This document shows positions 8,660 to 46,753 of a DNA stretch of 64,000 nucleotides, piece after piece. The DNA comes from Mobula hypostoma (Eukaryota). Location of the stretch: the NCBI RefSeq assembly GCF_963921235.1, contig NC_086097.1:3100001-3164000 (forward strand), in the 5' to 3' direction. Below the pieces are notes generated by a model, which made no database searches, was not told the DNA's origin, and worked only from the letters and a program-made list of their open reading frames with translations. The translations under genes were made by a program, and so were the position numbers. Positions within the stretch are counted from its first letter, which is position 1. Each line of letters opens with the position of its first letter.

Positions 8660-9210
8660 TCACTGGCCTTACGATTGAGTTTGTTGATTCTGTTGGTGTC
8701 TGCTACCCTCAGCCTGCTGCCCCAGCACACAACAGCAAACATGATCGCACTGGCCACCACAGACTCGTAGAACATCCTCAGCATCGTCCAGCAGATGTTA
8801 AAGGACCTCAGTCTCCTCAGGAAATAGAGACGGCTCTGACCCTTCTTGTAGACAGCCTCAGTGTTCTTTGACCAGTCCAGTTTATTGTCAATTCGTATCC
8901 CCAGGTATTTGTAATCCTCCACCATATCCACACTGACCCCCTGGATGGAAACCGGGGTCACCGGTACCTTAGCTCTCCTCAGGTTTACCACCAGCTCCTT
9001 AGTCTTTTTCACATTAAGCTGCAGATAATTCTGTTCACACCATGTAACAAAGTTTCCTACCGTAGCCCTGTACTCAGCCTCATCTCCCTTGCTGATGCAT
9101 CCAACTGTGGCAGAGTCATCCGAAAACTTCTGAAGATGACGACTCTGTGCAGTAGTTGAAGTCCGAGGTGTAAATGGTGAAGAGAAAGGGAGACAAGACA
9201 GTCCCCTGTG
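8660..9210 (-). mobile_element. Rex1/Babar LINE RT fragment
   Basis: LQKFSDDSATVG, LQLNVKKTKELVV, YKYLG, KKGQSRLYFLRRLRSF. Confidence 0.8.
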
Positions 9211-9371
9211 TTGGTAGAAGAAATAAAAAGATAGACTATTTTGTAAATGGAGAAAAAAATTAAAAATCTGAGGTGAAAGGGACTTGGGAGCCTTTGGGCA
9301 GGATTCCCTAAAGGTTAATTTGCATGTTGAGTCTGTAGTGAGGCAGGCAAATGCAATGCACAAGGATATAA

Positions 9372-9595
9372 ACAACAGGAATTCTGCAGATGCTGGAAAT
9401 TCAAGCAACACACATCAAAGTTGCTGGTGAACGCAGCAGGCCAAGCAGCATCTATAGGAAGAGGCGCAGTCGACGTTTCAGGCCGAGACCCTTCGTAGTC
9501 CTGACGAAGGGTCTCGGCCTGAAACGTCGACTGCGCCTCTTCCTATAGATGCTGCTTGGCCTGCTGCGTTCACCAGCAACTTTGATGTGTGTTGC
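9372..9595. mobile_element. Penelope-like terminal-repeat mini-insertion with a perfect 92-bp inverted repeat and about 15-bp TSD
   Basis: Arms 9405-9496 and 9504-9595 are exact reverse complements. tgcacaaggatataa occurs at 9357-9371 and 9593-9607. Same sequence as the 3' end of the GIY-YIG element at about 46505-46645. Confidence 0.85.
9497..9532 (+). ncRNA. Minimal type I hammerhead ribozyme motif (Penelope type)
   Basis: AGTC-CTGACGA-A-GGGT(CTCG)GCCT-GAAAC-GTC^GACT. Stem I is AGTC/GACT, the CUGANGA and GAAA boxes and stem II are present, stem III is the palindrome ACGT, and the cleavage triplet is GUC. Confidence 0.7.
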
Positions 9596-10143
9596 ACAAG
9601 GATATAATGTTGGTGGAGGCGGATATGATAGGGTCTTTTAAGAGACTCCTGGATAGGTACATGGAGCTTAGAAAAATAGAGGGCTATGGGTAACGCTAGG
9701 TTATTTTTCAGGTAAGGACATGTTCAGCACAGCTTTGTAGGCCAAATTGTATTGTGCTGTAGGTTTTCTATGTTTCTATAATGTTGAGGCTTTATAAAGC
9801 ACGGGTGAGGCCTCACTTGGACTTTTGTGAGCAGTTTTGCGCCCCTTATCTAGAAAGGATGTGCTGACACAGGACAGGGTTCAAAGGAGGTTCATGAAAG
9901 TGATTCCAAGATTGAACGGCTTGTCGTATAAAGAGCGTTTGATGGATCTGGGCCTGTATTCACTGGAATCTGGAAGAATGAGATGTGACCTAATTGAAAT
10001 GTATTGAATGGTGAAAGGCCTTGATAGAGTGGATGTGGAGAGGACCCATGTGCTTTTTAGTTGAGACAATAAAGGTTACTGTCAGTAAATACAGATCGTC
10101 TTTGTGCCTCTCTGATCACTATTACTGAGAACACTATCGAATA

Positions 10144-12035: not shown

Positions 12036-12112
12036 GGCTGTGTACCCCGGCAAAGCGCAATGGCTTCATCCCTTCACTTTGGGCGGCCACGAACAGGTAA
12101 CACCATGGCTTC

Positions 12113-12563
12113 ACACATCAAAGTTGCTGGTGAACGCAGCAGGCCAGGCAGCATCTCTAGGAAGAGGTACAGTTGATGTTTCGGGCTGAGACCCTTCGTC
12201 AGGACTAACTGAGGGAAGAGCTAGTAAGAGATTTGGGAGGGGGAGGGGGAGATCCAAAATGATAGGAGAAGACAGGAGGGGGAGGATATCTGGATAAACC
12301 GAAACTGGAAAAAAATATAATAATAATAAATAAATAACAGATGGGGTATGAAGGGGAGTTGGGGCATTAACATAAGTTAGAGAAGTCAATGTTCATGCCA
12401 TCAGGTTGGAGGCTACCCAGACTGAATATAAGGTGTTGTTCCTCCAACCTGAGTGTGGCTTCATCTTGACAGTAGAGGAGGCCGTGGATAGACATATCAG
12501 AATTGGAATGGGACGTGGAATTAAAATGTGTGGCCAGTGGCATGAACATTGATGGCATGAACA
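12113..12563 (-). mobile_element. Penelope-like element 3' fragment (end of GIY-YIG domain plus terminal repeat with decayed hammerhead)
   Basis: ATHFNSTSHSNSDMSIHGLLYCQDEATLRLEEQHLIFSLGSLQPDGMNIDFSN. Reverse-strand agtcctgacgaagggtctcagcccgaaacatc at about 12175-12206. Confidence 0.85.
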
Positions 12564-13165: not shown

Positions 13166-13344
13166 CATTTGACGATTCCCATCAGAGCAGCATGCAAAGG
13201 GTTGCCACTGCCTCACTTTTTTTGTTTTCTTTTTGCACTACTTATTTAATATACTTCTTAAATATATATTTGTTATTGTAATTTATTGTTTTTTATAGTG
13301 TATTGCATTGTACTGCTGCTGCAAAACAACAAATTTCATAACAT

Positions 13345-13496
13345 GCGGAAATCTGCAGATGCTGGAATTTGAAGCAACACACATAAAAAATGCTGGTGAA
13401 CGCAGCAGGCCAGGCAGCATCTCTAGGAAGAAGTACAGTTGGTGTTTCGGGCCGAGACCCTTCGTGACGAAGGGTCTCAGCCCGAAACGTCGACAG
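13345..13496. mobile_element. Penelope-like mini-insertion with about 30-bp fold-back and 15-bp TSD, inside a Rex1/Babar 3' tail
   Basis: caaatttcataacat at 13330-13344 and 13497-13511; internal junction ...gagacccttcgt|gacgaagggtctc... Confidence 0.85.
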
Positions 13497-14461
13497 CAAA
13501 TTTCATAACATATGCCAGTGATATTAGACCTGATTCTGATTCCAATTCTGATGTTAACCCCAGTTTATTCTCTCTATGTTCTCTCAACTGCTGCCAGATT
13601 CCAGCACTAATATATATCAGAAGCAATGTATAGTGGCCAATTAATATATCATCCTGCATGTTTTTAGGATGTGAACAGAAATTGGAGTGCCTACAGTTAC
13701 AAGGTGCCTAGCTTTCTGCAAACCCAGCGCGGACAGTATTGGAGGTAGAGTTTGAAACCGGCTGGACTAGAGCTGTGCAGCAGCATCACAACTGTGTTGT
13801 ATGCTGGTAGGGTCTAATCTTGATGTTTGCCATGTGGGGACGGTGAATAAATTCAATCATTTGAATTCCAGCTTTATCAGTTTGATAGACTTTCATTTGA
13901 ATTTACAAGCAATGAGATTGTAAATCCAAAATGCACACTCAACTTTTTAGGAACAGCTTCTCTGCTGCTGCCATCGGATTTCTGAGTGGGCAATAAGACC
14001 ATAAGATATTGGAGAAGAATGAGGCCATTTGGCCCATTGAGTCTGTTCTGCCATTTCATTATGGCTGATACATTTTGTCTCTCAGCTTGAATCTCCTGCC
14101 TTCTCCCCGTATCCCTTCATACCCTGACTAATCAAGAATCTGTCAACCTCTGCCTTAAATATACCCAATGACTTGGCCTCAACAGTCACCTGTGGCAACA
14201 AATTCCACAGATTCACCACCCTCTGGCTAAAGAACCTGAGTACACTACCTCAGTGTTCTACTTGCTCTCTTTTTGCACGACTTACTTCAATTTTTAATAT
14301 ATGTTTCTTATTGTAACCTACAGTTTCTTTTTTTAATTATGTATGGCAGTGTACTGCTACCGCAAAACAAATTTCACAACATATGCTAGTGATATTAAAC
14401 CTGATTCTGATGCCTATGCTTCAGTGCATGAACTATTTTAATACTTCATTCTTTTGCACAG

Positions 14462-45526: not shown

Positions 45527-46645
45527 GATGAGTGTGGCTTCATCTTTACAGTAGAGGAAGCCGTGGATAGACATATCAGAATGGGAATGGGATGTGGAAT
45601 TAAAATGTGTGGCCACTGGGAGACCCCATCCTCCCGCCACCCCACTAGGAATAGGGTTCCCCTTGTCCTCACCTACCACCCCACCAGTCTCCGGGTCCAA
45701 CGTATAATTCTCTGTAACTTCTGCCACCTCCAACGGGATCCCACCACTAAGCACATCTTTCCCTGCCCCCCTCTGTCCCCCCCCCCATCCCTTCCCACTG
45801 ATCTCCCTCCCAGCACTTATCCTTGTAAGCGGAACAAGTGCTACACATGCCCTTACATTTTCTCCCTCACCACCATTCAGGGCCCCAGACAGTCCTTCCA
45901 GGTGAGGTGACACTTCACCTGTGAGTCGGCTGGGGTGATATACTGCATCTGGTGCTCCTGATGTGGCCTTCTATATATTGGCGAGACCCGACGCAGGCTG
46001 GGAGACCGTTTCACTGAACACCTACGCTCTGTCCGCCAGAGAAAGCAGGATCTCCCAGTGGCCACACATTTTAATTCCACGTCCCATTCCCATTCTGATA
46101 TGTCTATCCACGGCCTCCTCTACTGTAAAGATGAAGCCACAGTCAGGTTGGAGGAACCACACCTTATATTCTGTCTGGGTAGCCTCCAACCTGATGGCAT
46201 GAACATTGACTTCTCTAATTTCCGTTAATGCCCCACCTCCCCTTCATACCCCATCCGTTACTTATTTATTATTATATTAATTTTTTTCCCTCCCTTTTTC
46301 TTGCTCGCTCCCTCTGACTATACCCCTTGCCCATCCTCTAGGTTTTCCCCCCCTCCCCCTTTTCCTTCTGCCTGGGCCTCCTGTCCCATGATCCTCTCAT
46401 ATCCCTTTTGCCAATCACCTGTCCAGCCCTTGGCTCCATCCCTCCCCCTCCTGTCTTCTCCTATCATCCCCCTCCCACTTTCAAATCTCTTACTAACTCT
46501 TCTTTCAGTTAGTCCTGACAAAGGGTCTTGGCCCGAAACGTCAACTGTACCTCTTCCTATAGATGCCGCCTGGTCTGCTGCGTTCACCAGCAATTTTTAT
46601 GTGTGTTGCTTGAAATTCCAGCATCTGCAGATTTCCTCGTGTTTG
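45527..46645 (+). mobile_element. Penelope-like retroelement 3' part (GIY-YIG endonuclease plus terminal repeat) with a 5' inverted segment
   Basis: CKRNKCYTCPY..GVIYCIWCS*CGLLYIGETRRRLGDRFTEH. 45527-45621 is an inverted copy of about 46050-46142. Decayed hammerhead at 46511-46546. Confidence 0.9.
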
Positions 46646-46753
46646 CCTGTCAAAGTTAGCCATGATCATATTGAATGGTCGGGGGGCAGGATGCTTCCTC
46701 TGGCCCCATTTCTTTCTATTCTGATAGACTTAAACGTGAACAAAAACTTAATA

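What the first reader, a model, noticed from the sequence alone, without database searches (positions are those of the whole stretch)
9357..9607. TSD-flanked perfect 92-bp hairpin whose axis is an intact hammerhead ribozyme, sense to the unc79 pre-mRNA
Seen: arms 9405-9496 and 9504-9595 are exact reverse complements around a 7-nt spacer (agtcctg), and a 15-bp TSD brackets the unit. The spacer plus right arm spell a minimal hammerhead (AGTC CTGACGA A GGGTCTCGGCCT GAAAC GTC^GACT). Known: Penelope-like elements carry minimal hammerheads with a palindromic stem III that act as dimers, and often have inverted terminal repeats. Inference: this is a recent insertion. In the unc79 intron RNA the left arm would pair with and mask the ribozyme, forming a long dsRNA that could be an ADAR or Dicer substrate.
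Basis: partly seen in the sequence, partly recalled or inferred. Interest (0 to 1): 0.7.

Follow-up and report, generated by a model that had tools for sequence, protein, structure and literature searches.

The report
Penelope-like retroelement fold-back insertion with hammerhead
This perfect hairpin is a young, very short insertion of a Penelope-like jumping gene, made of two head-to-head copies of the element's tail end that each inherit its small hammerhead motif; it is one of thousands of such fold-backs in this ray genome and follows a pattern already described for these elements.

Summary
Arms 9405-9496 and 9504-9595 are 100% complementary around a 7-nt spacer, and a 15-bp duplication flanks the unit. 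The + strand at 9497-9532 spells a minimal hammerhead motif.

The arm sequence is the last ~130 nt of the 3' UTR of a very abundant Penelope-like element (PLE). One long copy has a 1018-codon frame with weak RVT_1 and GIY-YIG matches.

The hairpin is a genome-wide class. Exact-anchor patterns find about 9,600 head-to-head fold-backs, with 0 in reversed controls. 152 parsed loci gave 126 junction types.

In 20 of 20 independent loci with flanks, only one arm carries the ~33-nt "tail". 19 of 20 have an 11-15 bp target duplication around the whole fold-back. This is the published PLE insertion architecture: inverted 5'-truncated copy, one-sided 30-40 bp tail, hammerhead.

The copy is recent (0 arm mismatches). 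Its ribozyme activity, expression and any dsRNA effect are untested. Rfam finds no hammerhead, and the 10.1-11.1 pair is G·U. This scan reached the same reading earlier for another fold-back in this genome.

Verdict: correct catch, known kind, low to moderate interest.

The parts
9357..9371 (.). Target-site duplication, left copy (TGCACAAGGATATAA)
   Evidence: family D2, 100%. Paralogous host-repeat copies carry the site once (10 of 11).
9372..9404 (-). 33-nt PLE 'tail': the extreme 3' end of the element (sense on the - strand, ...GCAGAATTCCTGTTGT), present on this arm only
   Evidence: Aligns to ref 394-431 of the 3' UTR of PLE copy L038. A one-sided tail was seen in 20 of 20 independent fold-backs. 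The published tail is 30-40 bp (PMC8557442, PMC3846280, PMC11167929).
9405..9496 (-). Left arm: 5'-truncated PLE 3' end, sense on the - strand. It starts inside the CUGA box (ACGAAGGG...), so the - strand hammerhead lacks CUG.
   Evidence: ref ~302-393.
9497..9503 (+). Spacer AGTCCTG. It is not filler but the extra 7 nt by which the + strand copy reaches further 5' (helix I 5' strand plus C3 U4 G5).
   Evidence: Copy L006 carries these bases on both arms.
9504..9595 (+). Right arm: second 5'-truncated PLE 3' end, sense on the + strand. It ends at the tail-less position (...GATGTGTGTTGC). Bases 9593-9595 are shared with the TSD.
   Evidence: ref 294-393.
9497..9532 (+). Minimal (PLE-type, type I) hammerhead motif. 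Helix I is AGUC/GACU. The core is CUGACGA, followed by a bulged A. Helix II is GGGU/GCCU with loop CUCG (the closing pair is G·U). Then GAAA and CG (15.2-16.2). UC17 would be cut after 9528.
   Evidence: with features from PMC4209133. No Rfam hit. Activity untested.
9593..9607 (.). Target-site duplication, right copy

Best explanation
The 221-bp unit 9372-9592 is the product of one retrotransposition event of a Penelope-like element (PLE) that is very abundant in this ray genome. Only the last ~100-130 nt of the element's RNA were copied, and they were copied twice, head to head.

How the two copies sit:
- One copy is sense on the - strand. It starts at the element's extreme 3' end and therefore includes the 33-nt 'tail'.
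- The other is sense on the + strand. It starts about 35 nt further in and has no tail.
- The two meet at their 5' ends, in the 5' part of the hammerhead motif.
- A 15-bp target-site duplication flanks the whole unit.

The perfect hairpin and the hammerhead at its axis are therefore by-products of PLE integration and inherited PLE sequence. They are not a host device.

Most likely sub-mechanism (inferred, about 45%): the dimeric PLE enzyme nicks both target strands 11-15 bp apart and primes reverse transcription on both, at its two alternative internal start sites. The two short cDNAs are then joined by a template jump with 0-4 nt of microhomology. Snap-back self-priming of one cDNA is the alternative (about 35%).

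Shown here: the PLE parentage, the TSD, the one-sided tail, the thousands of independent junctions, and arm-symmetric source variants.

Inferred: the order of priming events. Also inferred: in an intron transcript the 92-bp stem would lock the ribozyme motif in an inactive duplex.
For: Parentage:
- The arm matches the 3' end of a repeat (40 of 40 scored candidates; 2864 first-look candidates).
- In real copies this repeat follows a frame ending ...GLLYIGETRRRLGDRF...LGSLQPDGMNIDFSNF*.
- That 115-aa piece hits 14 longer proteins at E<=1e-5. The best is 89% identical, and its relatives show GIY-YIG at E 4.6e-4.
- Copy L038 has a 1018-codon open frame with RVT_1 (E 2.9e-5) and GIY-YIG (E 3.1e-3), both below Pfam cut-offs.
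- Its nearest Atlas clusters (score 0.96) carry HTH_animal, DUF8422, RVT_1 and GIY-YIG.
- Its 3' UTR ends with the same hammerhead-to-tail sequence as the arms, and it has its own 14-bp TSD.

Family:
- 40 of 40 scored candidates match the whole 221-bp unit at 91-100% identity, out of 759 first-look candidates.
- The copies have different flanks.

Class size (exact-anchor patterns; reversed controls 0 in every call):
- 3419 and 1067 loci with the hammerhead-proximal anchors.
- 151, 788, 2221 and 1969 loci with the downstream anchors.

Architecture:
- 20 of 20 independent loci have one arm reaching ref 421-431 and the other ending at ref 348-400.
- 19 of 20 have a TSD of 11-15 bp.

De novo birth:
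- 152 of 155 sampled loci could be parsed. They gave 126 junction classes, 111 of them singletons, with modal overlap of 0-4 nt.
- 44 differences from the reference are present identically on both arms, against 32 arm-arm mismatches. They fall into at least 8 haplotypes across 20 loci.

Literature:
- Inverted 5'-truncated copy, one-sided 30-40-bp tail, hammerhead in the pLTR (PMC8557442 and PMC3846280; passages read).
- The Anolis PLE protein cleaves and extends both strands, and starts reverse transcription at two sites that delimit the tail (PMC11167929; main text read).
Against: - RVT_1 and GIY-YIG scores are below Pfam gathering thresholds. Three other copies gave no RT hit. No PDB sequence hit was found.
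- No pseudo-LTR or tandem arrangement was seen in the one long copy examined.
- Both-strand priming with two free start sites would predict some tail/tail and no-tail/no-tail fold-backs, yet 20 of 20 are mixed. The asymmetry is therefore deterministic and no model explains it.
- At least 4 loci (L001, L002, L003, L007) share this copy's exact junction. That could mean secondary amplification of a fold-back master.
- The junction sample is the first-listed places on one contig. It is censored: fold-backs with longer arms or mutated anchors are not counted.
Confidence: 0.85

Rival explanations
1. The fold-back is itself a non-autonomous element (SINE-like or retrozyme-like). A master hairpin copy would be transcribed and copied as a whole by the PLE machinery, and this locus would be one of its offspring.
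For: - 40 of 40 scored loci match the entire 221-bp unit with the same outer ends.
- L001, L002, L003 and L007 share the identical 7-nt junction but have different flanks and TSDs.
- Some junction classes recur, up to 5 of 152.
- Non-autonomous PLE derivatives are described (PMC8557442 passage; abstract of bioRxiv 10.64898/2026.07.22.740005).
Against: - There are 126 junction classes in 152 loci.
- Copies that share the junction differ at sites changed identically on both arms, in all combinations. A faithfully copied master would not produce this.
- Recurrent junctions are expected by chance from the preferred arm ends. About 6-7% of ends fall at each of ref 295 and ref 302-305.
- Older fold-backs carry the diagnostic bases of older PLE subfamilies.
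Confidence: 0.15
2. The PLE origin is the same, but the second arm is made by snap-back self-priming. The first-strand cDNA would fold on short inverted repeats around the hammerhead (CCTTC...GAAGG, AGTC...GACT, GTCGAC) and copy itself.
For: - Arkhipova et al. proposed self-priming from the palindromes seen at inverted junctions (PMC3846280 passage).
- Junction overlaps of 0-4 nt are common.
- Junctions using the CCTTC/GAAGG repeat exist (L040, L043).
- Arm-symmetric variants follow automatically.
Against: - A snap-back copy should run back through the tail. Instead the second arm stops at the tail-less position in 19 of 20 loci and earlier in one.
- 42% of weighted arm ends fall in ref 294-305, whatever the partner's end.
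- The Anolis enzyme does extend both strands in vitro.
Confidence: 0.35
3. A miniature inverted-repeat DNA transposon (MITE or fold-back element) that moves by cut and paste.
For: Long perfect inverted repeat with a flanking duplication.
Against: - TSD length varies from 11 to 15 bp between copies.
- The inverted repeat is not terminal on one side (33-nt tail).
- The arms are the 3' end of a reverse-transcriptase element.
Confidence: 0.02
4. The perfect palindrome is an assembly artefact.
For: Published work says that PLE inverted structures trouble assemblies (PMC8557442 passage).
Against: - Thousands of loci on many contigs have the same architecture, with unique flanks and TSDs.
- The flanks continue a host repeat on both sides.
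Confidence: 0.03
5. A host-selected hairpin: a microRNA precursor or a regulatory ribozyme within unc79.
For: - Rfam miRNA models give sub-threshold hairpin hits (51.9 bits against a gathering score of 82).
- The stem is extremely stable.
Against: - All hits are below gathering and occur on both strands, as for any perfect hairpin.
- The copy is young and is one of about 10^4 similar inserts.
- There is no conservation or expression evidence.
Confidence: 0.03

Closest known systems
Canonical EN+ Penelope-like element insertions with an adjoining inverted 5'-truncated copy and a one-sided 30-40-bp tail (Pen2a_Av of Adineta vaga, PMC3846280; the general scheme in Craig et al. 2021, PMC8557442)
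   Same: Head-to-head inverted copies. Variable-length TSD around the whole insert. A tail of about 31-40 bp at one end only (33 bp here). Short palindromes or microhomology at the inverted junction. A hammerhead in the repeated terminal region.
   Different: There is no ORF and no direct pseudo-LTR between the arms: the insert consists only of the two inverted terminal fragments (221 bp). The one long parent copy I examined is a single unit without a pseudo-LTR.
Minimal hammerhead ribozymes (min-HHR) of metazoan PLEs (Cervera and de la Pena 2014, PMC4209133; shown to cleave as dimers by Lunse et al. 2016, known to me only through the passage in PMC6765202)
   Same: Type I topology. CUGANGA, GAAA and UH boxes. 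[quoted passage not shown] No loop III, with palindromic C15.2-G16.2. Helix I of 4 bp. Located near the 3' end of a PLE.
   Different: The closing pair of helix II is G·U in this young subfamily (G-C in the older subfamily). Helix II has only 4 pairs. No activity data exist for any ray copy.
Anolis Poseidon PLE (PAc) in vitro system (Frangieh et al. 2024, PMC11167929)
   Same: The hammerhead lies about 60-100 nt upstream of the reverse-transcription start sites. Two start sites about 30-40 nt apart define the tail. The enzyme cleaves and extends both target strands, which would give exactly the head-to-head product seen here.
   Different: That is an in vitro result in a lizard element whose ORF starts within the hammerhead. 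Here the ORF ends about 270 nt upstream of the hammerhead. No biochemistry exists for the ray element.
LINE-1 5' inversions by twin priming (recalled: Ostertag and Kazazian 2001; not read here)
   Same: Both nicked target strands prime cDNA on one RNA, giving an inverted 5' segment inside one TSD.
   Different: In L1 the inverted part comes from a different, more 5' stretch of the RNA, so no hairpin results. Here both arms copy the same 3'-terminal stretch.
Animal non-LTR retrozymes (PMC7229834 seen in listing only; bioRxiv 10.64898/2026.07.22.740005, abstract read)
   Same: Short non-coding units that bear a type I hammerhead and are related to PLE pLTRs.
   Different: Retrozymes are head-to-tail tandem repeats thought to work through circular RNA. 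This unit is a single inverted pair with no direct repeat other than the TSD.

Membership tests
Penelope-like element (PLE) insertion | Sequence derives from an element encoding a reverse transcriptase plus a C-terminal GIY-YIG endonuclease in one ORF | tested here: met
   Arm equals the 3' UTR end of L038. The L038 frame of 1018 codons has RVT_1 at E 2.9e-5 (24.3 bits, cut-off 29.6) at residues 534-672 and GIY-YIG at E 3.1e-3 (18.2 bits, cut-off 22.6) at residues 921-995. Both are sub-threshold. The domain order is right, and Atlas neighbours carry RVT_1 and GIY-YIG.
Penelope-like element (PLE) insertion | Target-site duplication of variable length (target-primed reverse transcription) | tested here: met
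   15 bp here. 11-15 bp in 19 of 20 independent fold-back loci; none found in L043.
Penelope-like element (PLE) insertion | Inverted 5'-truncated copy adjoining, head to head | tested here: met
   About 9,600 pattern matches genome-wide.
Penelope-like element (PLE) insertion | 30-40-bp 'tail' extension present at one end only | tested here: met
   33 nt at 9372-9404. One-sided in 20 of 20 independent loci.
Penelope-like element (PLE) insertion | Pseudo-LTRs from partial tandem copies | tested here: not met
   Neither this unit nor the single long copy L038 has a direct terminal repeat. Only one long copy was examined, so the family as a whole is untested. The literature calls this feature frequent, not obligatory.
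PLE-type minimal hammerhead (min-HHR, PMC4209133) | Conserved core boxes CUGANGA ... GAAA ... UH in type I order, with helix I closing | tested here: met
   9497-9532. Only hit in the window; 0 in 30 shuffles.
PLE-type minimal hammerhead (min-HHR, PMC4209133) | [quoted passage not shown] | tested here: met
   A9508
PLE-type minimal hammerhead (min-HHR, PMC4209133) | No loop III; positions 15.2-16.2 palindromic (dimer-competent helix III) | tested here: met
   GAAA-CG-UC; ACGU is self-complementary.
PLE-type minimal hammerhead (min-HHR, PMC4209133) | G10.1-C11.1 pair (described as highly conserved; not part of the search descriptor) | tested here: not met
   G9509 pairs with U9520 as a G·U wobble, here and in L038. 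Older subfamily copies have C. I therefore file it as a variant motif by descent, not as a proven ribozyme.
PLE-type minimal hammerhead (min-HHR, PMC4209133) | Self-cleavage (as dimer or protein-assisted) | not testable with these tools
   Nearest-neighbour folding favours non-hammerhead rods for both monomer and dimer. This does not test catalysis.
Rfam hammerhead families | Score at or above the gathering threshold of a curated hammerhead covariance model | tested here: not met
   No hammerhead hit at gathering over the whole window, nor at E<=10 over 9300-9700. From recall, these models require a helix III.
Non-LTR retrozyme | Head-to-tail tandem repeats, each with a hammerhead | tested here: not met
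   No direct repeat other than the TSD in 9000-10000.
MITE / fold-back DNA transposon | Terminal inverted repeats reaching both ends, and a TSD of fixed length | tested here: not met
   33-nt unpaired end. TSDs of 11-15 bp.
microRNA precursor families (mir-3926, MIR814, mir-2131) | Rfam gathering score | tested here: not met
   51.9, 50.2 and 44 bits against thresholds of 82, 90 and 92, with nearly equal scores (51.9/51.8, 44/44) on both strands for two of the three families.

The most novel reading that the evidence does not exclude
The fold-backs are a fossil record of how PLEs integrate. In this genome about 10^4 head-to-head inserts share three traits: one tailed arm, one tail-less arm, and inner ends that pile up on the 5' strand of hammerhead helix I. 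Weighted, 42% of arm ends fall in the 12 nt at ref 294-305, against 12% if spread evenly over the 97 nt sampled.

This would mean two things. First, the in vitro behaviour of the Anolis enzyme (both strands cleaved and extended, two internal start sites) is the normal in vivo route. Second, the hammerhead's 5' edge marks the 5' boundary of the RNA module that the PLE ribonucleoprotein actually copies. That boundary could be a short transcript start, a processed end or a hard stop. The hammerhead would then have a structural or boundary role that does not depend on self-cleavage.
Probability: 0.3. Interest if true: 0.55.

Novelty: new member of a known kind. Interest (0 to 1): 0.27.

Why it matters
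For the locus itself, little. It is a young, neutral-looking transposon insert, probably in an intron, and it belongs to a described class.

It is a useful annotation warning. Perfect 92-bp hairpins in ray and shark genomes are PLE by-products, not microRNA genes or designed ribozyme switches.

The class as a whole is more interesting. Thousands of independent, young junctions in one high-quality assembly could settle two open points of PLE biology:
- how the inverted copy and the one-sided tail arise;
- whether the hammerhead ever defines an RNA end in vivo.

If transcribed within a brain-expressed gene, a perfect 92-bp duplex is a plausible ADAR or Dicer substrate. That remains a proposal.

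Tried and rejected
1. Rfam scans gave no hammerhead, only sub-threshold generic hairpin hits.

2. Sequencing runs. Contigs of four runs laid on 9150-9850 at 88% likeness were swamped by repeat copies (more than 10^5 pieces per DNA run), and no piece spanned the locus. This gave no information on an empty allele, on expression or on editing.

3. Hammerhead cleavage-site footprint.
- Reading the list by eye, I thought about 17 of 50 loci had an arm ending exactly at ...CAGTC|, which would mark cDNA run-off on self-cleaved RNA.
- The scripted mapping gave 7 of 304 arm ends at ref 327, against a mean of about 3.2 per position over ref 305-345.
- Many of the eye-called cases are ambiguous through a GAC(G) microhomology.
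- The excess is not significant after allowing for about 40 positions, so I dropped it.

4. My first junction mapping over-extended arms across the centre, because the sequence upstream of the hammerhead resembles the antisense of the CUGA box. I replaced it.

5. Pfam on three 5'-truncated or decayed PLE copies found no RT: 10 and 31 ORF pieces. Only GIY-YIG at E 0.073 appeared, plus an unrelated RNase H-like hit in a neighbouring element.

6. The PDB sequence search with the long frame gave 0 hits at E<=1.

7. RNAcofold of two motif copies gave an extended duplex, not a dimeric hammerhead. The dimer topology cannot be scored by that tool.

8. I did not confirm unc79 exons inside the window. 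Only upstream UNC-79 domain exons were found, and look-ups in the scan's notes found nothing on unc79.

9. Lunse et al. 2016 is not held.
Full report
**Observation.** The sequence is as described.
- Arms 9405-9496 and 9504-9595 are perfect reverse complements (92 nt) around AGTCCTG.
- TGCACAAGGATATAA occurs at 9357-9371 and 9593-9607.
- As RNA the unit folds at -197.1 kcal/mol (z = -28.9; 0 of 200 shuffles as good).
- The + strand at 9497-9532 reads AGUC-CUGACGA-A-GGGUCUCGGCCU-GAAA-CG-UC^GACU.
- A relaxed min-hammerhead descriptor that I wrote from the features listed by Cervera and de la Pena (PMC4209133; whole text read in parts) finds this one site in the window. It finds none in 30 shuffles.
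- Rfam finds no hammerhead, either at gathering thresholds over the whole window or at E<=10 over 9300-9700. It returns only sub-threshold miRNA-hairpin matches on both strands.

**The unit is a repeat.**
- The whole 221-bp unit (tail plus hairpin) matches 40 of 40 scored candidates in the window's own genome at 91-100% identity. The first look flagged 759 candidates.
- Eight loci were aligned with their flanks. One is this locus, and two are a segmental duplicate pair.
- They share the same outer ends but have unrelated flanks, and target duplications of 12-15 bp (scripted).
- Variable TSD length and a non-terminal inverted repeat exclude a cut-and-paste element.
- The target lies in an older repeat. 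In 10 of 11 paralogous copies read, the duplicated bases occur once and run straight into the right-flank sequence.

**The parent is a Penelope-like element.**
- Older single-arm copies in the window (46380-46646 on +, 12112-12290 on -) continue upstream of the hammerhead.
- A search with 46380-46660 gave 40 of 40 scored matches, from 2864 first-look candidates.
- In individual genomic copies, the homology runs into a frame ending ...CSRCGLLYIGETRRRLGDRFAEHLRSV...LGSLQPDGMNIDFSNF*.
- That 115-aa piece finds 14 longer proteins at E<=1e-5. The best is 89% identical and carries an NCBI Mobula hypostoma label. Others are from Hypanus sabinus.
- Two of those proteins show GIY-YIG at E 4.6e-4 and 8.1e-4.
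- The best protein is 100% identical to a place in this genome, and 99 of 99 scored candidates match at 92-100%.
- One copy (L038) has a 1018-codon stop-free frame with RVT_1 (E 2.9e-5) followed by GIY-YIG (E 3.1e-3), both below Pfam's cut-offs.
- Its nearest named Atlas clusters (score 0.96) are animal proteins with HTH_animal, DUF8422, RVT_1 and GIY-YIG.
- Its 431-nt 3' UTR ends ...CAGTTAGTCCTGACaAAGGGTCTCGGCCTGAAACGTCGACTGCGCC...GCAGAATTCCTGTTGT. This is the arm sequence plus the 33-nt tail.
- It has its own 14-bp TSD and no 5' pseudo-LTR.

So, read on the - strand, the window's unit is an inverted partial copy followed by the last 125 nt of the PLE. Read on the + strand, the right arm plus spacer is a second copy that reaches 7 nt further 5' and stops 33-35 nt short of the 3' end.

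**The fold-back is a genome-wide class, born at insertion.** Exact patterns made of a 12-mer, its reverse complement and a gap count head-to-head junctions. The reversed-pattern control gave 0 in every call.

| Anchors | Gap (nt) | Loci |
|---|---|---|
| Next to the CUGA box | 0-30 | 3419 |
| Next to the CUGA box | 31-60 | 1067 |
| 54 nt further 3' | 0-30 | 151 |
| 54 nt further 3' | 31-60 | 788 |
| 54 nt further 3' | 61-90 | 2221 |
| 54 nt further 3' | 91-107 | 1969 |
| About 70 nt upstream of the hammerhead | 0-30 | 27 |

- The six nested bins sum to 9,615 loci. This is a lower bound, because the anchors must be unmutated.
- The summed arm length peaks where both arms end in the 5' half of the hammerhead.
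- I fetched the first-listed places on contig C1 from five bins: 155 loci, of which 152 could be parsed. I mapped each arm's inner end onto the L038 UTR.
- There were 126 junction classes, 111 of them singletons. The modal overlap was 0-4 nt.
- 80 of 304 arm ends fall in ref 294-299, the 5' strand of helix I. After weighting by bin size, 42% fall in ref 294-305.
- This copy's ends (ref 295 and ref 302) are both common ones.
- In the 20 independent loci for which I had flanks, one arm always reaches ref 421-431 (tail) and the other ends at ref 386-400, with one exception at 348. In 19 of 20, an 11-15 bp TSD flanks the whole pair.
- Across the same 20 loci, 44 differences from the reference are identical on both arms, against 32 arm-arm mismatches. 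They form at least 8 haplotypes that use the diagnostic bases of different PLE subfamilies.
- An older fold-back in the window (13345-13496, TSD caaatttcataacat) carries old-subfamily bases.

Each fold-back therefore copies both arms from one template variant. The class was generated many times from many sources, not amplified from one master.

**Comparison with the literature.**
- Craig et al. 2021 (PMC8557442; passages) and Arkhipova et al. 2013 (PMC3846280; passages) describe the same signature for EN+ PLEs: an inverted 5'-truncated copy adjoining the element, short palindromes at the inverted junction, a 30-40-bp tail often at one end only, variable TSDs, and hammerheads in the terminal repeats.
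- Frangieh et al. 2024 (PMC11167929; main text) showed that the Anolis enzyme cleaves and extends both target strands.
- They also showed that it starts reverse transcription at two internal sites that delimit the tail, and that its hammerhead is protein-assisted and dispensable for insertion in vitro.
- The ray data fit a both-strand priming model. They add that the tail asymmetry is invariant (20 of 20), which no current model explains.
- Snap-back self-priming, proposed in 2013, remains possible but does not by itself explain why the second arm stops at the tail boundary.

**The hammerhead.**
- By motif it matches the published min-HHR features: core boxes, a bulged base after A9, palindromic 15.2-16.2 and a 4-bp helix I.
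- The exception is the closing pair of helix II, which is G·U in this young subfamily and G-C in the older one.
- Folded alone, the motif's MFE pairs G5-G8 with C15.2-C17, and two copies form a duplex. These computations do not test catalysis.
- Published min-HHRs cleave poorly, and only as dimers or with protein (PMC4209133; PMC6765202 passage; PMC11167929).
- Inside this unit the motif is one strand of a perfect 92-bp stem, so activity in a transcript containing both arms is unlikely.
- The - strand copy lacks CUG.

**Gene context.** UNC-79 Pfam-domain exons lie on the + strand at C1:2,908,671-2,984,511. The window starts at 3,100,001. It is likely, but not shown, that the window is intronic to the same gene with the motif in the sense direction.

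**Verdict.**
- The object is an ordinary member of a described class. Earlier reports of this scan reached the same reading for another fold-back in this genome and for shark genomes.
- The functional ideas (active ribozyme, ADAR or Dicer substrate) are untested.
- The genome-wide junction statistics are the only part that goes beyond what I found in print. I searched for PLE inverted or tail structures and hammerhead dimers. I did not find a quantitative census of junction positions relative to the hammerhead, but supplements and papers not held were not seen.

Noticed in passing
window 13345-13496 (TSD 13330-13344 and 13497-13511): An older fold-back of the same PLE (about 85% identical) with a 15-bp TSD. 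Its second arm is only about 29 nt long and its axis lies inside the CUGA box. Its core is mutated, so no hammerhead motif is left.
   Followed up: partly
window 9603-9786: A second nested insertion sits right next to the fold-back. A 164-bp fragment (9613-9776) that looks like a LINE 3' end is flanked by the 10-bp repeat TATAATGTTG (9603-9612 and 9777-9786). Paralogous host-repeat copies are continuous across it. Its TSD overlaps the fold-back's TSD by 5 nt, suggesting an AT-rich target used twice.
   Followed up: partly
L038:4846-4861 (ref 281-296); same bases upstream of the hammerhead in window 46495-46510: Immediately 5' of helix I there is a polypyrimidine run followed by CAG and TAG (CTCTTCCTTCAGTTAG|TCC), which looks like a 3' splice site. 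Cervera and de la Pena note that in Drosophila virilis Penelope the intron ends at the 5' end of helix I. The junction hot region of the fold-backs (ref 294-301) coincides with this spot.
   Followed up: no
L038 ref 286-309 (CCTTCAGTTAGTCCTGAC[G/A]AAGG): A built-in inverted repeat, CCTTC...GAAGG, brackets the 5' half of the hammerhead. In RNA it would compete with the active fold. In cDNA it could seed snap-back. It also made my first gapped mapping over-extend.
   Followed up: partly
L004 and L005 (G000:C91:57,903,754 and 57,883,852): Two fold-back copies with identical flanks and TSD lie about 20 kb apart: a segmental duplication that contains the insert.
   Followed up: no
proteins P0004, P0005, P0014: Public gene models named 'divergent protein kinase domain 1C isoform X2', 'mucin-2 isoform X2' and 'chitinase domain-containing protein 1 isoform X1' match the PLE endonuclease piece at 73-90% identity. 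Transposon sequence was probably absorbed into predicted isoforms.
   Followed up: no
L058 (G000:C64:62,695,329-62,698,437): Another copy of the same host repeat carries a PLE 3' end (tail-less end first) inserted within a few bases of the homologous position. This hints at a preferred AT-rich target in that repeat.
   Followed up: no
junction sample, ref 327: There is a small local excess of arm ends at the first base after the hammerhead cleavage site (7 ends, against 1-2 at flanking positions). It is not significant in this sample but worth re-testing on the whole genome.
   Followed up: partly
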